Source of the DNA: a virus
Lineage: Duplodnaviria > Heunggongvirae > Uroviricota > Caudoviricetes
Direction: 5' to 3' (one strand)
Virus record (IMG/VR): IMGVR_UViG_2698536379_000025
Length of the DNA: 7,257 bases
Part shown: positions 1 to 7,257 of the stretch, piece after piece
How the letters are laid out: each line of letters begins with the position of its first letter
Numbering within the stretch: position 1 is the first letter of the stretch
The notes under the pieces: model-generated
What the model saw: only the letters and a program-made list of their open reading frames with translations
Database searches by the model: none
What the model was told of the DNA's origin: nothing
Made by a program: the position numbers and the translations under genes

Positions 1-594
1 ATGCTTATTGGCTATGTCCGCGTATCAACAAATGACCAGAACACGGAATTGCAGCGTAACGCGCTGGAGTGTGCGGGATGTGAGCGGATTTTTGAGGATA
101 AAATCAGCGGCACGAAGTCCGACAGGCCGGGACTGAAAAAACTGCTCAGAACATTATCAGCAGGTGACACTCTGGTAGTCTGGAAGCTGGACAGGCTGGG
201 GCGTAGTATGCGGCATCTGGTCATTCTGGTTGAGGAACTGCGCGAACGCGGTGTTAATTTTCGCAGCCTGACGGATGCCATTGATACCAGCACGCCGATG
301 GGGCGTTTTTTCTTTCATGTGATGGGGGCCCTGGCTGAAATGGAACGAGAACTCATTGTCGAGCGGACTCGGGCCGGGCTGGAAGCGGCCAGAGCCAAAG
401 GTCGTATTGGTGGCAGACGTCCTAAACTCACCACGAGTGAGTGGGAGCAGGCAGGACGGTTGCTGGCTGCGGGTGAATCACGTCAACGCGTGGCGCTGAT
501 TTTTGATATTGGCCTGTCCACGCTCTATAAAAAATTCCCCTCATCAGCGACAAAGAATAAATTGTGTCATCCCTTAGCCAACCGGGACAAATAG
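1..594 (+). CDS. Serine recombinase, site-specific DNA invertase (Gin/Pin/Cin/Hin family)
   Basis: 197-aa ORF starting at window base 1. N-terminus MLIGYVRVSTNDQ carries the catalytic Ser (codon 25-27) of the resolvase/invertase domain. Conserved LVVWKLDRLGRS and GRFFFHVMGALAEMERELI motifs, and a C-terminal helix-turn-helix (GRRPKL...STLYKKFP). Family assignment is from recalled Gin/Hin sequences, not a search. Confidence 0.9.
   Translation: MLIGYVRVSTNDQNTELQRNALECAGCERIFEDKISGTKSDRPGLKKLLRTLSAGDTLVVWKLDRLGRSMRHLVILVEELRERGVNFRSLTDAIDTSTPMGRFFFHVMGALAEMERELIVERTRAGLEAARAKGRIGGRRPKLTTSEWEQAGRLLAAGESRQRVALIFDIGLSTLYKKFPSSATKNKLCHPLANRDK
46..108. promoter_or_regulatory. Candidate Fis-dependent recombinational enhancer inside the 5' part of the invertase gene
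   Basis: In Hin/Gin/Cin systems the enhancer lies within the 5' coding region of the invertase (established knowledge). Here two G-N13-C 15-mers (46-60 and 94-108) have centres 48 bp apart, and the second sits in an A/T-rich imperfect palindrome GATTTT-N7-AAAATC (87-105). The Fis motif is degenerate, so this is weak. Confidence 0.25.
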
Positions 595-595
595 C

Positions 596-627
596 CTGAC
601 ATCTCCGGCACAACTGAAAATATCACT
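596..627 (+). promoter_or_regulatory. Possible late promoter region for the FI operon (position not resolved)
   Basis: 60-bp gap between invertase stop and FI start. It contains CTGACA (596-601) and A/T-rich -10-like hexamers (AAATAT/TATCAC, 618-627), but the spacing is not canonical. No perfect TGT-N12-ACA Ogr-type dyad is present between 540 and 650. Confidence 0.2.
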
Positions 628-653
628 CACCCATTAACCACGGAGTTAAACGG

Positions 654-1844
654 ATGAGTGACTATCATCACGGCGTGCAGGTGCTGGAGATTAACGACGG
701 CACCCGCGTCATTTCCACCGTATCCACTGCCATTGTCGGCATGGTCTGCACGGCCAGCGATGCGGATGCGGAAACCTTCCCCCTCAATAAACCTGTGCTG
801 ATTACCAATGTGCAGAGCGCAATTGCAAAGGCCGGTAAAAAAGGCACGCTGGCGGCATCGTTGCAGGCCATCGCTGACCAGTCAAAACCGGTCACCGTTG
901 TCGTGCGCGTGGAAGACGGCACCGGCGACGACGAGGAAACGAAACTCGCGCAGACCGTTTCCAATATCATCGGCACCACCGACGAAAACGGTCAGTACAC
1001 CGGACTGAAAGCCCTGCTGGCGGCGGAGTCGGTAACCGGTGTTAAACCGCGTATTCTCGGCGTGCCGGGACTGGACACCAAAGAGGTGGCTGTTGCACTG
1101 GCATCAGTCTGTCAGAAGCTGCGCGCTTTCGGGTATATCAGCGCATGGGGCTGTAAAACCATTTCCGAGGTGAAAGCCTACCGTCAGAATTTCAGCCAGC
1201 GTGAGCTGATGGTCATCTGGCCGGATTTCCTCGCATGGGATACGGTCACCAGTACCACCGCCACCGCGTATGCCACCGCTCGTGCGCTGGGGCTGCGCGC
1301 TAAAATCGACCAGGAGCAGGGCTGGCATAAAACGCTGTCCAACGTCGGGGTGAACGGTGTTACCGGCATCAGCGCATCTGTATTCTGGGATTTGCAGGAG
1401 TCCGGCACCGATGCTGACCTGCTTAACGAGTCAGGCGTCACTACGCTGATTCGCCGCGACGGTTTCCGCTTCTGGGGTAACCGTACCTGCTCTGATGACC
1501 CGCTGTTCCTCTTTGAAAACTACACCCGTACCGCGCAGGTGCTGGCCGACACGATGGCTGAGGCGCACATGTGGGCGGTGGACAAGCCCATCACCGCAAC
1601 GCTGATTCGCGACATCGTTGACGGCATTAATGCCAAATTCCGTGAACTGAAAACAAACGGCTATATCGTGGATGCGACCTGCTGGTTCAGCGAAGAATCC
1701 AACGATGCGGAAACCCTCAAGGCCGGAAAACTGTATATCGACTACGACTATACCCCGGTGCCTCCTCTCGAAAACCTGACCCTGCGCCAGCGTATTACCG
1801 ATAAATACCTGGCAAATCTGGTCACCTCGGTTAACAGCAATTAA
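654..1844 (+). CDS. FI: Contractile tail sheath protein (P2 gpFI-like)
   Basis: 396-aa ORF beginning MSDYHHGVQVLEINDGTRV, recognised as P2-type sheath protein. GGAG at 642-645 is a Shine-Dalgarno motif 8 nt upstream of the ATG. Stop TAA at 1842-1844. Confidence 0.95.
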   Translation: MSDYHHGVQVLEINDGTRVISTVSTAIVGMVCTASDADAETFPLNKPVLITNVQSAIAKAGKKGTLAASLQAIADQSKPVTVVVRVEDGTGDDEETKLAQTVSNIIGTTDENGQYTGLKALLAAESVTGVKPRILGVPGLDTKEVAVALASVCQKLRAFGYISAWGCKTISEVKAYRQNFSQRELMVIWPDFLAWDTVTSTTATAYATARALGLRAKIDQEQGWHKTLSNVGVNGVTGISASVFWDLQESGTDADLLNESGVTTLIRRDGFRFWGNRTCSDDPLFLFENYTRTAQVLADTMAEAHMWAVDKPITATLIRDIVDGINAKFRELKTNGYIVDATCWFSEESNDAETLKAGKLYIDYDYTPVPPLENLTLRQRITDKYLANLVTSVNSN

Positions 1845-2432: not shown

Positions 2433-2708
2433 ATGAACAAAGAAAATGTGATTACCCTGGACAATCCGGTCAAGCGTGGTGAGCAGGTTATCGAACAGGT
2501 CACGCTGATGAAACCCAATGCCGGGACGCTGCGCGGTGTCAGTCTGGCTGCGGTCGCGAACTCTGAAGTCGATGCACTGATTAAGGTGCTGCCGCGCATG
2601 ACGGCACCGATGCTGACCGAGCAGGAAGTCGCCGCGCTGGAACTGCCTGACCTTGTGGCGCTGGCCGGTAAGGTGGTCGGTTTTTTGTCGCCGAACTCGG
2701 TGCAGTGA
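2433..2708 (+). CDS. E: Tail assembly chaperone gpE (0-frame product)
   Basis: 91-aa ORF beginning MNKENVITLDNPVKRGEQV. Shine-Dalgarno-like GTGAGAAAA upstream. Stop TGA at 2706-2708. Lies immediately upstream of the tape measure gene, the conserved position for a frameshifted chaperone pair. Confidence 0.9.
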   Translation: MNKENVITLDNPVKRGEQVIEQVTLMKPNAGTLRGVSLAAVANSEVDALIKVLPRMTAPMLTEQEVAALELPDLVALAGKVVGFLSPNSVQ

Positions 2709-2860
2709 CGTTTCCGAAAAATCTCTCGGTCGATGACCTGATGGCGGATGTGGCAGTGATATTTCACTGGCCGCCATCAGAACTATATCCCATGAGCCTG
2801 ACCGAACTCATCACATGGCGCGAAAAGGCGCTCCGGCGAAGCGGAAACACGAATGAGTAA
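2433..2860 (+). CDS. E+E': Tail assembly chaperone gpE+E' (programmed -1 frameshift fusion, 142 aa)
   Basis: Slippery heptamer T TTT TTG at 2681-2687 lies 7 codons before the E stop. The -1 frame stays open from 2687 to TAA at 2858-2860, encoding ...VAELGAVTFPKNLSVDDLMADVAVIFHWPPSELYPMSLTELITWREKALRRSGNTNE. The total of 85 + 57 = 142 aa matches P2 E+E'. The E' stop overlaps the T start codon. Confidence 0.8.
2681..2687 (+). other. -1 ribosomal frameshift slippery site (TTTTTTG)
   Basis: Heptamer of the X XXY YYZ class, read in the E frame as GGT TTT TTG. The T6G-type slippery sequence is the established site for P2 E/E' and for the analogous lambda G/GT pair. Confidence 0.8.
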
Positions 2861-5300
2861 CAATGTAAAATTACAGGTATTGCTCAGGGCTGTTGACCAG
2901 GCATCCCGCCCGTTTAAATCCATCCGCACAGCGAGCAAATCGCTGTCGGGGGATATCCGGGAAACACAAAAATCACTGCGCGAGCTGAACGGTCAGGCAT
3001 CCCGTATTGAGGGATTTCGCAAGACCAGTGCACAGCTCGCCGTGACTGGTCATGCACTTGAAAAGGCACGGCAGGAAGCCGAAGCCCTTGCCACACAGTT
3101 TAAAAACACCGAACGTCCGACCCGTGCTCAGGCGAAAGTGCTGGAATCCGCAAAGCGTGCGGCGGAGGACTTACAGGCGAAATATAACCGCCTGACGGAT
3201 TCCGTTAAACGCCAGCAGCGGGAACTGGCCGCTGTGGGAATTAATACCCGCAATCTTGCACATGATGAGCAGGGACTGAAAAACCGTATCAGTGAAACCA
3301 CCGTACAGCTTAACCGTCAGCGTGACGCGCTGGCGCGTGTCAGTGCGCAACAGGCAAAACTTAACGCAGTAAAACAGCGTTATCAGGCCGGAAAGGAACT
3401 GGCAGGAAATATGGCCTCAGTGGGCGCTGCCGGTGTGGGGATTGCTGCTGCGGGAACGATGGCCGGTGTTAAGCTGCTGATGCCCGGTTATGAGTTTGCG
3501 CAGAAAAACTCAGAATTACAGGCTGTGCTCGGAGTGGCAAAAGACTCCGCCGAAATGACCGCACTACGCAAACAGGCGCGCCAGCTCGGCGACAATACCG
3601 CAGCCTCGGCAGATGATGCAGCCGGTGCACAGATTATCATTGCGAAAGCCGGTGGGGATGTTGATGCCATTCAGGCGGCAACGCCGGTCACGCTGAATAT
3701 GGCGCTGGCGAACCGCCGCACGATGGAAGAAAACGCCGCCCTGCTGATGGGGATGAAATCCGCCTTTCAGCTTTCAAACGATAAGGTCGCTCATATCGGG
3801 GATGTTCTCTCCATGACGATGAACAAAACCGCCGCCGATTTTGACGGCATGAGCGATGCGCTGACCTATGCCGCACCTGTGGCAAAAAATGCCGGTGTCA
3901 GCATTGAAGAAACCGCCGCAATGGTCGGGGCGCTGCATGATGCAAAAATCACAGGCTCAATGGCGGGGACGGGAAGCCGTGCCGTGTTAAGCCGCCTGCA
4001 AGCACCGACGGGAAAAGCATGGGATGCACTCAAAGAGCTTGGAGTGAAAACCTCAGACAGCAAGGGAAACACCCGGCCAATATTTACCATTCTGAAAGAA
4101 ATGCAGGCCAGTTTTGAGAAAAACCGGCTCGGTACTGCCCAGCAGGCTGAATACATGAAAACTATTTTCGGGGAGGAGGCCAGCTCAGCCGCCGCCGTGC
4201 TGATGACTGCCGCCTCAACCGGAAAGCTGGACAAACTGACCGCTGCGTTTAAAGCCTCAGACGGGAAGACCGCAGAGCTGGTAAATATCATGCAGGACAA
4301 CCTCGGCGGTGACTTTAAGGAGTTTCAGTCCGCTTATGAGGCGGTGGGGACTGACCTGTTTGACCAGCAGGAAGGCGCACTGCGTAAACTCACTCAGACG
4401 GCCACAAAGTATGTGTTAAAACTCGACGGCTGGATCCAGAAAAACAAATCACTGGCGTCAACCATCGGCCTCATTGTCGGTGGCGCGCTGGCGCTTATTG
4501 GCATCATCGGTGCCATTGGTCTTGTAGCATGGCCGGTTATCACCGGCATCAATGCCATTATCGCGGCAGCAGGCGCAATGGGGGCAATCTTCATGACGGT
4601 TGGCAGTGCTGTTATGACGGCCATCGGGGCGATTAGCTGGCCGGTTGTGGCCGTGGTGGCCGCCATTGTCGCCGGGGCGTTGCTTATCCGTAAATACTGG
4701 GAGCCTGTCAGCGCATTCTTTGGCGGTGTGGTGGAAGGGCTGAAAGCGGCATTTGCGCCGGTGGGGGAACTGTTCACGCCACTTAAGCCGGTGTTTGACT
4801 GGCTGGGTGAAAAGTTACAGGCCGCGTGGCAGTGGTTTAAAAACCTGATTGCCCCGGTCAAAGCCACTCAGGACACCCTGAACCGTTGCCGTGACACGGG
4901 GGTCATGTTCGGGCAGGCACTGGCTGACGCGCTGATGCTGCCGCTTAATGCGTTCAACAAACTGCGCAGTGGTATTGACTGGGTACTGGAAAAACTCGGT
5001 GTTATCAACAAAGAGTCAGACACACTTGACCAGACCGCCGCCAGAACTCAAGCCGCCACGTATGGCAGCGGTGGTTATATTCCGGCGACCAGCTCTTATG
5101 CAGGCTATCAGGCTTATCAGCCGGTCACGGCACCGGCTGGCCGCTCTTATGTGGACCAGAGTAAAAATGAATATCACATCAGCCTGACGGGGGGTACTGC
5201 GCCGGGAACACAGCTTGACCGCCAGTTACAGGATGCGCTCGAAAAATACGAGCGGGATAAACGTGCGCGCGCCCGTGCCAGCATGATGCATGACGGTTAA
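2853..5300 (+). CDS. T: Tail tape measure protein (P2 gpT-like)
   Basis: 815-aa ORF. The N-terminal half is coiled-coil-like and rich in A/Q/R/K. A long Gly/Ala/Ile-rich hydrophobic block (about nt 4449-4690) is typical of tape measure proteins. Located after the E/E' pair. Confidence 0.95.
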   Translation: MSNNVKLQVLLRAVDQASRPFKSIRTASKSLSGDIRETQKSLRELNGQASRIEGFRKTSAQLAVTGHALEKARQEAEALATQFKNTERPTRAQAKVLESAKRAAEDLQAKYNRLTDSVKRQQRELAAVGINTRNLAHDEQGLKNRISETTVQLNRQRDALARVSAQQAKLNAVKQRYQAGKELAGNMASVGAAGVGIAAAGTMAGVKLLMPGYEFAQKNSELQAVLGVAKDSAEMTALRKQARQLGDNTAASADDAAGAQIIIAKAGGDVDAIQAATPVTLNMALANRRTMEENAALLMGMKSAFQLSNDKVAHIGDVLSMTMNKTAADFDGMSDALTYAAPVAKNAGVSIEETAAMVGALHDAKITGSMAGTGSRAVLSRLQAPTGKAWDALKELGVKTSDSKGNTRPIFTILKEMQASFEKNRLGTAQQAEYMKTIFGEEASSAAAVLMTAASTGKLDKLTAAFKASDGKTAELVNIMQDNLGGDFKEFQSAYEAVGTDLFDQQEGALRKLTQTATKYVLKLDGWIQKNKSLASTIGLIVGGALALIGIIGAIGLVAWPVITGINAIIAAAGAMGAIFMTVGSAVMTAIGAISWPVVAVVAAIVAGALLIRKYWEPVSAFFGGVVEGLKAAFAPVGELFTPLKPVFDWLGEKLQAAWQWFKNLIAPVKATQDTLNRCRDTGVMFGQALADALMLPLNAFNKLRSGIDWVLEKLGVINKESDTLDQTAARTQAATYGSGGYIPATSSYAGYQAYQPVTAPAGRSYVDQSKNEYHISLTGGTAPGTQLDRQLQDALEKYERDKRARARASMMHDG

Positions 5301-5314
5301 GGAGGTGACGAAAA

Positions 5315-5794
5315 ATGATGCTCGCGTTAGGTATGTTTGTTTTTATGCGCCAGACGCTGCCACACCAGACCATGCAGCGTGAATCGGATTATCGCTGGCC
5401 GTCAAATTCCCGTATCGGTAAACGGGATGCCTACCAGTTTCTCGGTGTGGGTGAGGAAAACATCACACTTGCCGGTGTGCTTTATCCAGAGCTGACCGGC
5501 GGCAAGCTGACGATGACCACGCTCAGGCTGATGGCAGAGGAAGGCCGGGCGTGGCCGTTGCTGGATGGCACCGGCATGATTTACGGCATGTATGTCATCA
5601 GCAGGGTGAGTGAAACAGGGAGTATTTTCTTTGCAGACGGCACACCCCGAAAAATTGATTTTACGCTGTCGCTCACCCGCGTTGATGAATCACTGGCCGC
5701 GCTTTATGGCGATATAGGTAAACAGGCGGAATCACTCATCGGTAAGGCTGGCAGTATGGCAACTAAATTCACGGGTATGACGGGGGCGGGATAA
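5315..5794 (+). CDS. U: Tail protein gpU-like
   Basis: 159-aa ORF beginning MMLALGMFVFMRQTLPHQTMQRESDYRWPSNSRIGKRDAYQFLGVGEENITLAGVLYPELTGG. GGAGG Shine-Dalgarno at 5301-5305, 9 nt before the ATG. The stop overlaps the D start in TAATG. Confidence 0.9.
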   Translation: MMLALGMFVFMRQTLPHQTMQRESDYRWPSNSRIGKRDAYQFLGVGEENITLAGVLYPELTGGKLTMTTLRLMAEEGRAWPLLDGTGMIYGMYVISRVSETGSIFFADGTPRKIDFTLSLTRVDESLAALYGDIGKQAESLIGKAGSMATKFTGMTGAG

Positions 5795-6957
5795 TGCTGG
5801 ATACGCTGACATTTGATGCAGGCAGTACGCTGACGCCGGATTACATGCTGATGCTCGACAGCAGGGATATTACCGGCAATATCAGCGACCGTCTGATGAG
5901 TATGACCCTGACGGATAACCGGGGCTTTGAGGCTGACCAGCTTGATATTGAACTGAACGATGCCGACGGGCAGGTCGGGCTGCCGGTTCGTGGCGCTGTC
6001 CTGACGGTGTATATCGGCTGGAAAGGTTTTGCCCTGGTATGCAAAGGGAAATTTACCGTTGATGAGGTTGAACACCGGGGCGCACCGGATGTGGTCACCA
6101 TCCGCGCCCGGAGTGCAGATTTTCGCGGGACGCTCAATTCCCGCCGGGAAGGCTCCTGGCATGACACCACGCTCGGTGCGATTGTTGAAGCGATAGCCTC
6201 CCGTAACAGGCTGGAAGCCAGTGTCGCGCCGTCACTGGCCGGAATTAAAATCCCGCACATCGACCAGTCGCAGGAGTCTGATGCGAAATTTCTGACCCGT
6301 CTTGCAGAACGCAACAGCGGTGAGGTGTCGGTAAAAATGGGAAAACTGCTGTTTCTCAAAGCGGGGCAGGGGGTGACGGCCAGCGGTAAAAAAATCCCGC
6401 AGGTCACCATCACCCGCAGCGACGGTGACCGCCATCATTTTGCGATTGCTGACCGTGGAGCCTACACCGGCGTAACGGCAAAGTGGTTACACACCAAAGA
6501 CCCGAAGCCGCAAAAGCAGAAGGTAAAACTGAAACGCAAAAAGAAAGAGAAACACCTGCGCGCACTGGAGCACCCGAAAGCGAAACCGGTCACGCAGAAG
6601 AAAGCGCCAAAAGTACCGGAAGCGCGCGAAGGTGAATACATGGCAGGTGAGGCTGACAATGTTTTTGCCCTGACCACGGTATATGCCACGAAAGCGCAGG
6701 CCATGCGCGCCGCTCAGGCGAAGTGGGATAAACTGCAACGGGGCGTTGCGGAGTTCTCCATCAGCCTGGCTACCGGTCGGGCTGATATTTACACGGAAAC
6801 ACCGGTTAAAGTGTCAGGCTTTAAGCGCGTCATAGACGAGCAGGACTGGACAATCACTAAGGTGACACATTTTCTGAATAATAGCGGCTTCACGACGTCC
6901 TTAGAGCTTGAGGTCAGGCTTTCTGATGTGGAGTACGAAACAGAAGATGATGAGTGA
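5794..6957 (+). CDS. D: Tail protein gpD-like (late control gene D family; baseplate hub, VgrG N-terminal-like fold)
   Basis: 387-aa ORF beginning MLDTLTFDAGSTLTPDYMLMLDSRDITGNISD. Its ATG at 5794 overlaps the U stop. Contains a lysine-rich segment at about 6496-6636. Confidence 0.9.
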   Translation: MLDTLTFDAGSTLTPDYMLMLDSRDITGNISDRLMSMTLTDNRGFEADQLDIELNDADGQVGLPVRGAVLTVYIGWKGFALVCKGKFTVDEVEHRGAPDVVTIRARSADFRGTLNSRREGSWHDTTLGAIVEAIASRNRLEASVAPSLAGIKIPHIDQSQESDAKFLTRLAERNSGEVSVKMGKLLFLKAGQGVTASGKKIPQVTITRSDGDRHHFAIADRGAYTGVTAKWLHTKDPKPQKQKVKLKRKKKEKHLRALEHPKAKPVTQKKAPKVPEAREGEYMAGEADNVFALTTVYATKAQAMRAAQAKWDKLQRGVAEFSISLATGRADIYTETPVKVSGFKRVIDEQDWTITKVTHFLNNSGFTTSLELEVRLSDVEYETEDDE

Positions 6958-6975
6958 TGTTTTTATTTTATGTGT

Positions 6976-7004
6976 TTGTTTTATAAGGATAAATTAACTA
7001 AAAT
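6976..7004 (+). promoter_or_regulatory. Putative sigma70 promoter for ogr (TTGTTT-N17-TAAAAT)
   Basis: -35-like TTGTTT at 6976-6981 and -10-like TAAAAT at 6999-7004 with a 17-nt spacer, in the A/T-rich D-ogr gap. The predicted transcription start near 7011 lies downstream of the in-frame ATGs at 6970 and 7003 and upstream of the Shine-Dalgarno GGAAGAGG (7023-7030). Confidence 0.45.
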
Positions 7005-7038
7005 GGCACCATCAACAAAACCGGAAGAGGTGCTCGCG

Positions 7039-7257
7039 ATGTTTCATTGTCCTTTATGCCAGCATGCCGCACATGCGCGTACAAGCCGCTATATCACTGA
7101 CACGACAAAAGAGCGTTATCACCAGTGTCAGAACGTGAATTGCAGCGCCACGTTCATCACTTATGAGTCGGTACAGCGATACATCGTGAAGCCGGGAGAA
7201 GTCCACGCCGTAAGACCGCACCCGTTGCCGTCAGGGCAGCAAATTATGTGGATGTAA
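7039..7257 (+). CDS. ogr: Late gene transcriptional activator Ogr (zinc-finger, Ogr/Delta family)
   Basis: 72-aa product MFHCPLCQHAAHARTSRYITDTTKERYHQCQNVNCSATF... with Cys-X2-Cys...Cys-X4-Cys zinc-binding pattern. Shine-Dalgarno GGAAGAGG lies 8 nt before the ATG at 7039. The track ORF from 6970 is an in-frame upstream extension that is probably not translated. Confidence 0.9.
   Translation: MFHCPLCQHAAHARTSRYITDTTKERYHQCQNVNCSATFITYESVQRYIVKPGEVHAVRPHPLPSGQQIMWM

What the first reader, a model, noticed from the sequence alone, without database searches (positions are those of the whole stretch)
1..653. A Gin/Pin-type DNA invertase sits where P2 carries Z/fun, predicting an invertible tail-fibre segment just upstream
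In P2 the slot between tail-fibre gene G and FI holds the moron Z/fun. Here that slot is filled by a serine invertase that ends 60 bp before FI. In Mu, P1 and e14 such invertases flip an adjacent segment carrying alternative tail-fibre C-termini and assembly chaperones. The window opens exactly at the invertase ATG, so the crossover site and the invertible segment are off-window to the left. Both orientations may coexist in a population, which would make this a host-range switch.
Basis: partly seen in the sequence, partly recalled or inferred. Interest (0 to 1): 0.5.

Follow-up and report, generated by a model that had tools for sequence, protein, structure and literature searches.

The report
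Pin/Gin-type tail-fibre invertase in P2-like prophage
The first gene of this window is an intact Pin/Gin-family DNA invertase of a P2-like E. coli prophage that flips a ~1.9-kb tail-fibre segment lying just upstream of the window; this host-range switch is common and already described, so the finding is correct but ordinary.

Summary
Observation confirmed. Window 1-594 encodes a 197-aa serine recombinase (Resolvase + HTH_7). It is 86% identical to e14 PinE and about 79% to Mu Gin. All catalytic residues are present, including Ser9. The gene ends 59 nt before the P2-type sheath gene FI, in the slot where P2 carries Z/fun.

The window matches draft contig CYAE01000016.1 exactly, and that contig starts only 147 bp upstream. 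Ten other genomes encode the identical invertase. They carry, upstream, gene H, two opposed tail-fibre-assembly genes and an opposed fibre C-terminus cassette, bracketed by 26-bp inverted crossover sites. Two of these prophages (L007, L010) have essentially identical flanks, and the 1905-bp segment between the sites is inverted.

One is a homologue of the recombinational enhancer annotated in P7 cin (nt 19-86). The other is the Ogr-binding site of the pF late promoter (nt 557-585), which overlaps the invertase 3' end.

One oddity: in the source contig, the 17 bp of the proximal crossover site that are shared with the distal site read AAAAAAAAAAACCAGAG. This is either an assembly artefact or a locked switch.

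Flipping in a P2-like E. coli prophage with the same layout has been shown experimentally (PMC4272514). Invertases in the Z/fun hotspot are described (bioRxiv 10.1101/2024.10.15.618418). Already known; low interest.

The parts
1..594 (+). DNA invertase gene (197 aa, stop included), Pin/Gin (Din) family serine recombinase
   Evidence: ORF. Pfam Resolvase E 8e-53 plus HTH_7 E 9e-13. Collinear with Mu Gin crystal-structure sequences 3UJ3/4M6F over residues 1-182, E 1e-94. 86% identical to e14 PinE, 77% to P7 Cin, 75% to SfMu Gin.
25..27 (+). Codon of the catalytic Ser9 (TCA)
   Evidence: Aligns with Ser9 of Gin (4M6F; 3UJ3 carries Ala there) and Ser10 of gamma-delta resolvase. Y5, R7, S9, D33, R42, D64, R65 and R68 are invariant across six invertases. 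M114 is present where the Gin crystal constructs carry Val.
19..86 (.). Probable recombinational enhancer (Fis-dependent 'sis'-type element) inside the invertase coding sequence. Two near-invariant G...C 15-mers lie at 22-36 and 71-85.
   Evidence: The P7 record annotates the cin enhancer at cin nt 19-86. Window 19-86 is 53/68 identical to it and 53/68 to SfMu gin, against about 69-70% gene-wide. Identical codons at conserved residues are more frequent in codons 7-29 than in codons 30-140: 10/19 vs 27/92 for window-P7. Fis binding itself is inferred, not tested.
412..543 (+). C-terminal helix-turn-helix DNA-binding domain (residues 138-181)
   Evidence: Pfam HTH_7. Matches the Hin DNA-binding domain 1HCR, E 1e-8.
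557..585 (+). Counterpart of the P2 pF activator (Ogr) binding site, overlapping the last codons of the invertase. The right-hand junction of the invertase module with the P2 backbone lies at about 562-574.
   Evidence: P2 annotation: activator binding site 17555-17583 and FI ATG 17652. The gap-free alignment from there to FI gives window 557-585. TTGTG and TTAGCCAACCGG are conserved and the middle differs. Megablast homology to invertase-less peduoviruses starts at 562 and to P2 at 574.
628..630 (+). Counterpart of the P2 F-operon transcription start (pF)
   Evidence: The P2 transcription start at 17626-17628 maps by the gap-free alignment. Window 586-660 differs from P2 at 2 of 75 positions.
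654..1844 (+). FI tail sheath gene, first gene of the F operon (context: defines the slot)
   Evidence: Pfam Phage_sheath_1, Phage_sheath_1C and Gp18_domIII_N. 97.6% DNA identity to P2 FI over the part tested.

Best explanation
Window 1-594 is the recombinase gene of a Pin/Gin-type (Din-family) site-specific inversion system carried by a P2-like (Peduovirus) prophage of E. coli, in the G-FI slot where P2 has Z/fun. The invertase binds two 26-bp crossover sites in inverted orientation. One lies inside tail-fibre gene H, about codon 272. The other lies 56-81 bp upstream of the invertase ATG. With the host factor Fis bound to an enhancer inside the 5' end of the invertase gene (window 19-86), the enzyme cuts at the central dinucleotide with Ser9, rotates the subunits and religates. 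This flips a ~1.9-kb segment. Each orientation joins the constant N-terminal part of H to one of two alternative C-terminal receptor-binding cassettes and puts the matching tail-fibre assembly chaperone downstream in the sense orientation. A lysogen population therefore yields virions of two host ranges. Shown here: the protein family and its catalytic residues; the upstream architecture and crossover sites in genomes with the identical invertase; inversion isomers among natural genomes. Inferred from the Gin, Cin, Hin and Pin literature and from homology: Fis and enhancer dependence, the cleavage chemistry, and the host-range effect. Open for this particular copy: whether the proximal crossover site is intact.
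For: Family: Pfam Resolvase plus HTH_7. E 1e-94 to Mu Gin structures over residues 1-182. 86% identity to e14 PinE with all catalytic residues invariant. Source: the window equals L014 148-7404 exactly. Architecture: ten loci with the identical invertase carry H, tfa, opposed tfa and an opposed fibre C-terminus upstream. H is intact in both arrangements, 452 aa or 394 aa. Sites: TTCTCGCATACCTTGGTTTGGGAGAA in H and TTCTCCCAAACCAACGTTTAAGAAAA before the invertase. They share the inner half-site and have opposite central TT/AA. The right site is identical or 1 nt different from the one next to pinE in e14. Inversion in nature: L007 vs L010 flanks are 6031/6031 and 8655/8658 identical, and the segment is inverted at 1903/1905. 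L006, L009, L012 and L013 vs L010 behave likewise. Both right-junction types are common in complete E. coli genomes: 912 and 259 genomes. Selection: identical protein from genes with up to 27 synonymous differences; L001 and L002 show 24:6 and 22:4 synonymous:non-synonymous differences. Enhancer: homology to the annotated P7 cin enhancer. Experiment elsewhere: in EPEC E2348/69, a P2-like remnant with the same order (fibre, tfa, opposed tfa, opposed gp53-like cassette, invertase, sheath), an 81%-identical invertase and the same right site flips within clonal cultures, 93 +/- 4% forward, by WGS (PMC4272514, Table S1). [quoted passage not shown]
Against: In the source contig itself, 17 bp of the proximal crossover site read AAAAAAAAAAACCAGAG instead of CTTCTCCCAAACCAACG (10 substitutions). 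These are exactly the bases shared with the distal site: the inner half-site and the core. The 65 nt on each side are identical to L010. If this is real, this copy cannot recombine at that site. The distal site and the cassettes of this strain are not on the contig, so they could not be examined. No sigma-70 consensus promoter was found between the crossover site and the ATG. Some relatives have decayed switches: the KC618326 invertase is frameshifted after about residue 128, and S164 has degenerate sites. Fis binding, cleavage and host-range change were not tested here.
Confidence: 0.88

Rival explanations
1. Locked switch. In this particular prophage the invertase-proximal crossover site has really been destroyed, so the tail-fibre segment is frozen with the 189-aa-type cassette next to the invertase. 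The intact invertase is then an orphan that could at most act in trans on other Din-type segments in the same cell.
For: L014 66-82 reads AAAAAAAAAAACCAGAG where all relatives have CTTCTCCCAAACCAACG, and the flanks are 65/65 and 65/65 identical to L010. Decayed switches do exist among relatives: L002 has degenerate sites and L003 a frameshifted invertase. Cross-complementation among Gin, Cin, Pin, Hin and Fin is established knowledge (not tested here).
Against: The variant is absent from 5426 complete E. coli genomes (best match 96.2%), from the species-representative genomes and from the metagenome contigs. Ten substitutions, eight of them to A, confined to 17 bp and lying 66-82 nt from a draft contig end, look more like a base-calling or assembly artefact than a mutation. 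The affected bases are exactly the short inverted repeat, a place where assemblers have trouble. The invertase protein is identical to that of prophages that have demonstrably inverted.
Confidence: 0.25
2. The ORF is a Tn3 or gamma-delta-type resolvase, or a plasmid or transposon cointegrate resolvase, inserted as unrelated cargo and not connected with the tail fibres.
For: It has the same Pfam domains as resolvases and matches gamma-delta and Tn3 resolvase structures at E 1e-27 to 1e-33.
Against: It is far closer to the invertases: E 1e-94 to Gin and 86% identity to PinE. No transposase is adjacent. Inverted rather than direct sites flank a segment that is found inverted between otherwise identical prophages.
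Confidence: 0.01
3. The invertase gene is a decaying, non-functional remnant of an e14-like module.
For: The close relative KC618326 has a frameshifted copy lacking the DNA-binding domain. The last ~15 residues of the window protein fall outside the Gin/Pin alignment, and the final seven codons are P2 promoter DNA.
Against: The reading frame is full-length with every catalytic residue and the HTH. The exact protein is listed in 337 blocks of the assembly collection. It is encoded by alleles with only synonymous differences, though those loci were selected for identical protein. Loci retrieved by DNA similarity show 24:6 and 22:4 synonymous:non-synonymous differences. Inversion isomers exist among prophages carrying it.
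Confidence: 0.04

Closest known systems
e14 cryptic prophage P-segment and PinE (E. coli K-12)
   Same: Closest invertase found (86% identity). Same module order: stf, tfa, opposed tfa, opposed stf, pin. The proximal crossover site TTCTCCCAAACCAACGTTTATGAAAA lies 55-80 bp before the ATG; it is identical to that of pro483, L004 and L005 and 1 nt different from L006-L013. Flipping of e14 in culture is documented (PMC4272514).
   Different: e14 is a lambdoid remnant, and pinE is followed by mcrA. Here the module sits in a P2-type tail cluster, is followed by the pF promoter and FI, and the protein has a 13-residue longer C-terminus running into P2 backbone DNA.
Phage Mu G segment and Gin (also SfMu)
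   Same: Same gene order and direction: fibre S, U, opposed U', opposed S', then gin downstream. About 75-79% protein identity. Collinear with the solved Gin structures. The enhancer lies inside the 5' part of the gene (established knowledge; homology).
   Different: Different phage type (a transposable myovirus). In Mu, gin is followed by com/mom, not by a sheath gene.
Phage P1/P7 C segment and Cin
   Same: 77% identity. The annotated enhancer at cin nt 19-86 aligns with window 19-86 at 53/68. The cix sites belong to the same 26-bp family.
   Different: In P7 the invertible segment lies downstream of cin, and cixL overlaps the cin 3' end. Here the segment is upstream.
P2-like prophages and phages with an invertase in the Z/fun hotspot (pro483, S164, 'P2' of O157:H43 T22, Salmonella phage MET_P1_103_31, EPEC E2348/69 P2-like remnant; Fels-2 Fin from my own knowledge)
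   Same: Same invertase-to-FI junction at 95-97% DNA identity. The EPEC remnant has the same layout and the same right site, and flips experimentally (PMC4272514). The phenomenon is stated in bioRxiv 10.1101/2024.10.15.618418. The same adjacency occurs in Citrobacter, Kluyvera and Pantoea genomes.
   Different: Only allelic differences: which cassettes are present, and whether the invertase or the sites have decayed. The source contig alone has the poly-A version of the proximal site.
Salmonella Hin / H segment
   Same: Same family. The window's HTH domain matches the Hin DNA-binding domain structure. The mechanism (26-bp sites, Fis, enhancer in the gene) is established knowledge.
   Different: Hin flips a promoter for flagellin phase variation, not tail-fibre coding cassettes, and the hin gene lies inside the invertible segment.

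Membership tests
Din family of DNA invertases (Gin/Cin/Pin/Hin) | Small serine recombinase: N-terminal catalytic domain with the nucleophilic Ser (Gin Ser9) and the conserved Arg/Asp residues | tested here: met
   Pfam Resolvase E 8e-53. Y5, R7, S9, D33, R42, D64, R65 and R68 are invariant in the alignment with PinE, Cin, Gin and two EPEC invertases. Aligned to Gin and gamma-delta resolvase structures.
Din family of DNA invertases (Gin/Cin/Pin/Hin) | C-terminal helix-turn-helix DNA-binding domain | tested here: met
   Pfam HTH_7 E 9e-13, residues 138-181. Matches the Hin DNA-binding domain 1HCR.
Din family of DNA invertases (Gin/Cin/Pin/Hin) | High mutual sequence identity among members (over 60%), well above that to resolvases | tested here: met
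   86% to PinE, 77% to Cin, 75-79% to Gin. Gamma-delta resolvase matches only at E 1e-33.
Din family of DNA invertases (Gin/Cin/Pin/Hin) | Two 26-bp imperfectly palindromic crossover sites in inverted orientation with a 2-bp core, flanking the segment | tested here: inconclusive
   Met in all ten genomes with the identical invertase. In the source contig only the proximal site is available, and its inner half and core read poly-A. The distal site is not on the contig.
Din family of DNA invertases (Gin/Cin/Pin/Hin) | Recombinational enhancer with Fis sites in cis, inside the 5' part of the invertase gene | tested here: inconclusive
   A sequence homologous to the annotated P7 cin enhancer is present at window 19-86 (53/68 identity) with weakly elevated synonymous conservation. 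Fis binding and enhancer activity cannot be tested with these tools.
Din family of DNA invertases (Gin/Cin/Pin/Hin) | The flanked segment is actually found in both orientations | tested here: met
   L007 and L010 are inversion isomers, and L006, L009, L012 and L013 likewise against L010. Within-population heterogeneity in the source strain was not testable because no reads are available.
Phage tail-fibre host-range switch (Mu G / P1 C / e14 P type) | The segment carries alternative fibre C-terminal cassettes and cognate tfa chaperones in opposed orientation, with one crossover site inside the fibre gene | tested here: met
   Called genes: Phage_tail_fib H of 452 or 394 aa, Caudo_TAP (+), Caudo_TAP (-), and a Gp53-like_C or 189-aa cassette (-). 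The left site lies about 815 nt into H. This was met in relatives; the region is off-contig for the source.
Phage tail-fibre host-range switch (Mu G / P1 C / e14 P type) | The two orientations give virions with different host range | not testable with these tools
   Inferred from the Mu and P1 literature only.
P2-like phages (Peduovirus) F operon | Gene order FI-FII-E-E'-T-U-D-ogr behind an Ogr-activated pF promoter | tested here: met
   Pfam families of all the ORFs. 97.6% DNA identity to P2 from nt 574 over the part tested. The annotated P2 activator site and transcription start map to window 557-585 and 628-630.

The most novel reading that the evidence does not exclude
The poly-A replacement of the inner half-site and core of the invertase-proximal crossover site in the source contig is real. 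That would make this prophage a naturally locked single-host-range variant that still keeps a fully intact, selected invertase. The enzyme would then be free to act only in trans on other Din-type invertible segments of the cell.
Probability: 0.2. Interest if true: 0.25.

Novelty: already known. Interest (0 to 1): 0.12.

Why it matters
Invertible tail-fibre segments let a temperate phage hedge its bets between two receptors, and they cause within-clone heterogeneity and breaks in draft assemblies. For this window the value is correct annotation. The gene is a Pin-like invertase whose substrate lies just off the contig, whose coding sequence probably contains its own enhancer, and whose 3' end overlaps the Ogr-dependent pF promoter. 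Nothing here changes current understanding. The arrangement occurs in a large fraction of E. coli genomes: about 1,560 of 5,426 complete genomes carry at least 80% of the window. It has been described and shown experimentally to flip in a related P2-like prophage.

Tried and rejected
1. I searched for the poly-A crossover-site variant in complete E. coli genomes, species-representative genomes and metagenome contigs. There were no hits, so neither artefact nor real mutation could be proved.

2. I tried to recover the upstream part of the source prophage. The exact tape-measure protein occurs on only three contigs, and the one returned starts 147 bp before the invertase. The distal site and the cassettes of this strain stay unknown.

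3. A sigma-70 promoter scan upstream of the invertase in L008 gave no consensus promoter between the crossover site and the ATG. It found only a weak terminator-like hairpin at L008 7962-7981.

4. Rfam found nothing inside the window, only CyaR beyond its end.

5. The Tn3-type resolvase reading was rejected.

6. The paper on Fels-2 Fin (PMC1347348) is not held. That comparison rests on my own knowledge and on reference 43 of PMC4272514.

7. I compared the enhancer blocks by eye with my recollection of the Fis consensus. Beyond G and C at the ends of the 15-mers the fit looked poor to me, so I make no claim from the Fis motif itself, only from homology to the annotated cin enhancer.

8. Structure prediction was not run. 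About 79% identity to a solved Gin structure makes it unnecessary.

Full report
**What is in the window.** The 7257-base window is the right-hand part of the late tail region of a P2-like (Peduovirus) prophage. ORFs on the + strand are a 197-aa protein (1-594), FI sheath (654-1844), FII tube (1857-2375), E (2433-2708), the E' frame (2705-2860), tape measure T (2853-5300), U (5315-5794), D (5794-6957) and ogr (to 7257). Pfam hits fit each of them. The window is an exact substring (148-7404) of draft contig CYAE01000016.1 of assembly GCA_001277435.1, fetched as L014. That contig begins only 147 bp upstream of the window. Downstream of the window lie the sRNA gene cyaR and then a U32-peptidase gene.

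**The observation.** The first ORF starts at base 1 with ATG and has a Resolvase catalytic domain (E 8e-53) and an HTH_7 domain (E 9e-13). It aligns without gaps over residues 1-182 with the two solved Mu Gin structures (E 1e-94). It is 86% identical to PinE of the e14 element, 77% to P7 Cin and 75% to SfMu Gin. Tyr5, Arg7, Ser9, Asp33, Arg42, Asp64, Arg65 and Arg68 are invariant in that alignment. These correspond to Y6, R8, S10, D36, R45, D67, R68 and R71 of gamma-delta resolvase in the alignment. Position 114 is Met, where the Gin crystal constructs carry Val. From my own knowledge, M114V is the Fis-independent mutant, so this is the ordinary Fis-dependent type. The stop ends at 594 and FI starts at 654. 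In P2 itself the corresponding slot, between G and FI, holds fun(Z) on the opposite strand.

**The prediction of an upstream invertible segment.** The exact 197-aa protein is listed in 337 blocks of the assembly collection, and ten loci with 8 kb of flank were fetched (L004-L013). All show, upstream of the invertase:
- the baseplate genes and tail-fibre gene H;
- a Caudo_TAP tail-fibre assembly gene on the + strand;
- a second Caudo_TAP gene on the - strand;
- a - strand fibre C-terminus cassette (Gp53-like_C, Collar or unannotated).

Two 26-bp sites in inverted orientation bracket this region. TTCTCGCATACCTTGGTTTGGGAGAA lies about 815 nt into H. TTCTCCCAAACCAACGTTTAAGAAAA (or ...TATGAAAA) lies 56-81 bp before the invertase ATG. 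Read on the same strand, they share the inner half-site GGTTTGGGAGAA, have the central TT, and differ in the outer half-sites. That is the anatomy of gix, cix, pix and hix sites. The proximal site is identical or nearly so to the one 55-80 bp upstream of pinE in E. coli K-12.

**Evidence that the segment really flips.** L007 and L010 come from two different assemblies, sit at the same chromosomal position and are equally distant from the window. Their left flanks are identical (6031/6031) and their right flanks nearly so (8655/8658). The 1905 bp between the sites is 1903/1905 identical only after reverse complementation, against 514/1905 when read directly. L006, L009, L012 and L013 relate to L010 in the same way. 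In one orientation H is 452 aa and is followed by the 197-aa chaperone. In the other it is 394 aa and is followed by the 146-aa chaperone. Both are intact reading frames. Among 5426 complete E. coli genomes, the right junction of the first type is covered at 80% or more in 912 genomes and that of the second type in 259. About 1,560 genomes carry at least 80% of the whole window.

The invertase is under purifying selection. Alleles encoding the identical protein differ at up to 27 synonymous sites; these loci were selected for identical protein, which is a caveat. The two phage alleles retrieved by DNA similarity show 24:6 and 22:4 synonymous:non-synonymous differences.

First, the enhancer. 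The GenBank record of phage P7 annotates the enhancer of Cin-mediated inversion at nt 19-86 of cin. Window 19-86 aligns with it without gaps and is 53/68 identical, as it is to SfMu gin. Gene-wide identity is about 69-70%. Two 15-mers with G and C at their ends (22-36 and 71-85) are almost invariant. Codons at conserved residues are more often identical in codons 7-29 than in codons 30-140: 10/19 vs 27/92, 10/20 vs 36/85 and 10/18 vs 32/84. This is weak but consistent evidence for an extra constraint. The cis-acting enhancer of the system therefore probably lies in the window. Fis binding is inferred, not shown.

Second, the pF promoter. Homology to P2 and to invertase-less peduoviruses starts at nt 562-574. 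The annotated P2 pF activator-binding site (17555-17583) maps to window 557-585 and the pF start site to 628-630. So the last seven codons of the invertase are P2 promoter DNA, the protein's C-terminal tail beyond residue ~182 has no counterpart in Gin or Pin, and the module junction lies inside the Ogr site. There TTGTG and TTAGCCAACCGG are kept but the middle is replaced.

**The oddity in the source contig.** The 147 bp upstream of the window cover the position of the proximal crossover site. Bases 1-65 and 83-147 of L014 are identical to L010, placing the 189-aa-type cassette next to the invertase. Bases 66-82 read AAAAAAAAAAACCAGAG where every relative has CTTCTCCCAAACCAACG. These 17 bases are precisely the part of the site shared with the distal site. 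The variant was not found in any complete E. coli genome (best match 96.2%, which is L010's genome), in the species-representative genomes or in the metagenome contigs.

Eight changes to A plus two more, within 82 nt of a draft contig end and exactly on a short inverted repeat, look to me more like a base-calling or assembly artefact than a mutation. I put this at roughly 3:1, but I cannot prove it. If the variant is real, this copy is locked.

Contigs of many draft genomes end 73-205 nt upstream of a homologous invertase (L019, L020, L022, L024, L025, L028, L029, L031, L034, L037). That is what mixed orientations in the sequenced culture would cause. It fits, but does not prove, active flipping.

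**Comparison with what is known.** The module is a Pin/Gin-type tail-fibre switch. Its closest relative is the e14 P segment with pinE. Its layout matches Mu G/gin, with the segment upstream of the invertase, rather than P7 C/cin, with the segment downstream.

The same invertase-to-FI junction is present at 95-97% identity in phages pro483 and S164, in 'P2' of O157:H43 T22 and in Salmonella phage MET_P1_103_31, where it is annotated as DNA invertase. In more distant form it occurs in Citrobacter, Kluyvera and Pantoea genomes. pro483 and KC618326 carry the 444-bp and 603-bp chaperone genes on swapped strands relative to each other.

In EPEC E2348/69, a P2-like remnant has the same gene order, an 81%-identical invertase and the identical proximal site. 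It is one of the loci shown by whole-genome sequencing of single colonies to flip, at 93 +/- 4% forward (PMC4272514, Table S1). [quoted passage not shown] From my own knowledge, the Fels-2 prophage invertase Fin is another P2-family example; it is reference 43 in PMC4272514, and the paper itself is not held.

**Verdict.** The thing is an ordinary, already described member of a textbook system. The only open point specific to this sequence is whether the aberrant crossover site in the deposited contig is real. Interest 0.12; novelty: already known.

Noticed in passing
L014 66-82 (source contig, 66-82 nt upstream region of the window start; off-window): The inner half-site and core of the invertase-proximal crossover site read AAAAAAAAAAACCAGAG instead of CTTCTCCCAAACCAACG, with perfectly matching flanks. 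The variant was found nowhere else. It is either an artefact or a locked switch.
   Followed up: partly
L019, L020, L022, L024, L025, L028, L029, L031, L034, L037 and L014 (contig ends): Contigs of many draft assemblies from several genera end 73-205 nt upstream of a homologous invertase gene, at or near the crossover site. This is the pattern expected if both orientations coexisted in the sequenced culture.
   Followed up: no
window 2681-2687: A TTTTTTG run lies near the end of gene E, just before the overlapping E' frame (2705-2860). From my own knowledge this is the place of the programmed -1 frameshift that makes E+E' in P2.
   Followed up: no
window 6970-7257: The mechanical ORF for ogr is 95 aa, but gene callers in the source contig and in all relatives start it at window 7039 (72 aa, Ogr_Delta zinc finger). 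The window ends exactly at its stop codon.
   Followed up: partly
L014 7509-7594 (-), 105 nt beyond the window end: The sRNA gene cyaR (RyeE) scores 99.9 bits immediately after the prophage end, followed by a U32-peptidase gene, ParDE, and genes with response-regulator, histidine-kinase, MFS and RND-transporter domains. This is probably the integration locus of the prophage.
   Followed up: partly
L003 8001-8620 (KC618326) and L002 6569-6594 / 7920-7945 (S164): Two relatives have decayed switches. The KC618326 invertase is frameshifted after about residue 128 and loses its DNA-binding domain, although its 31-bp inverted repeats are perfect. S164 keeps an intact invertase, but both its sites differ from the search consensus at 7 of 26 positions and most of the opposed cassette is gone.
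   Followed up: partly
L008 7962-7981 (equivalent to L014 109-128, off-window): A weak terminator-like hairpin (AACTGGCATCATCTCCGGTT followed by a T run) sits between the proximal crossover site and the invertase ATG. It may end the V-W-J-I-H-G late operon, as the annotated terminator after G does in P2.
   Followed up: no
L099 4564-8363 (EPEC E2348/69, 1.89 Mb): A second P2-like prophage in EPEC carries a 73%-identical invertase. Here the tail sheath-to-U operon lies on the opposite strand downstream. This is the locus reported as a three-repeat, four-state 'shufflon'.
   Followed up: no
H31 and H34 (NZ_CP048310.1, NZ_CP150989.1): In some complete E. coli genomes the homologous tail operon is interrupted by IS2 or ISEc12 insertions.
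   Followed up: no
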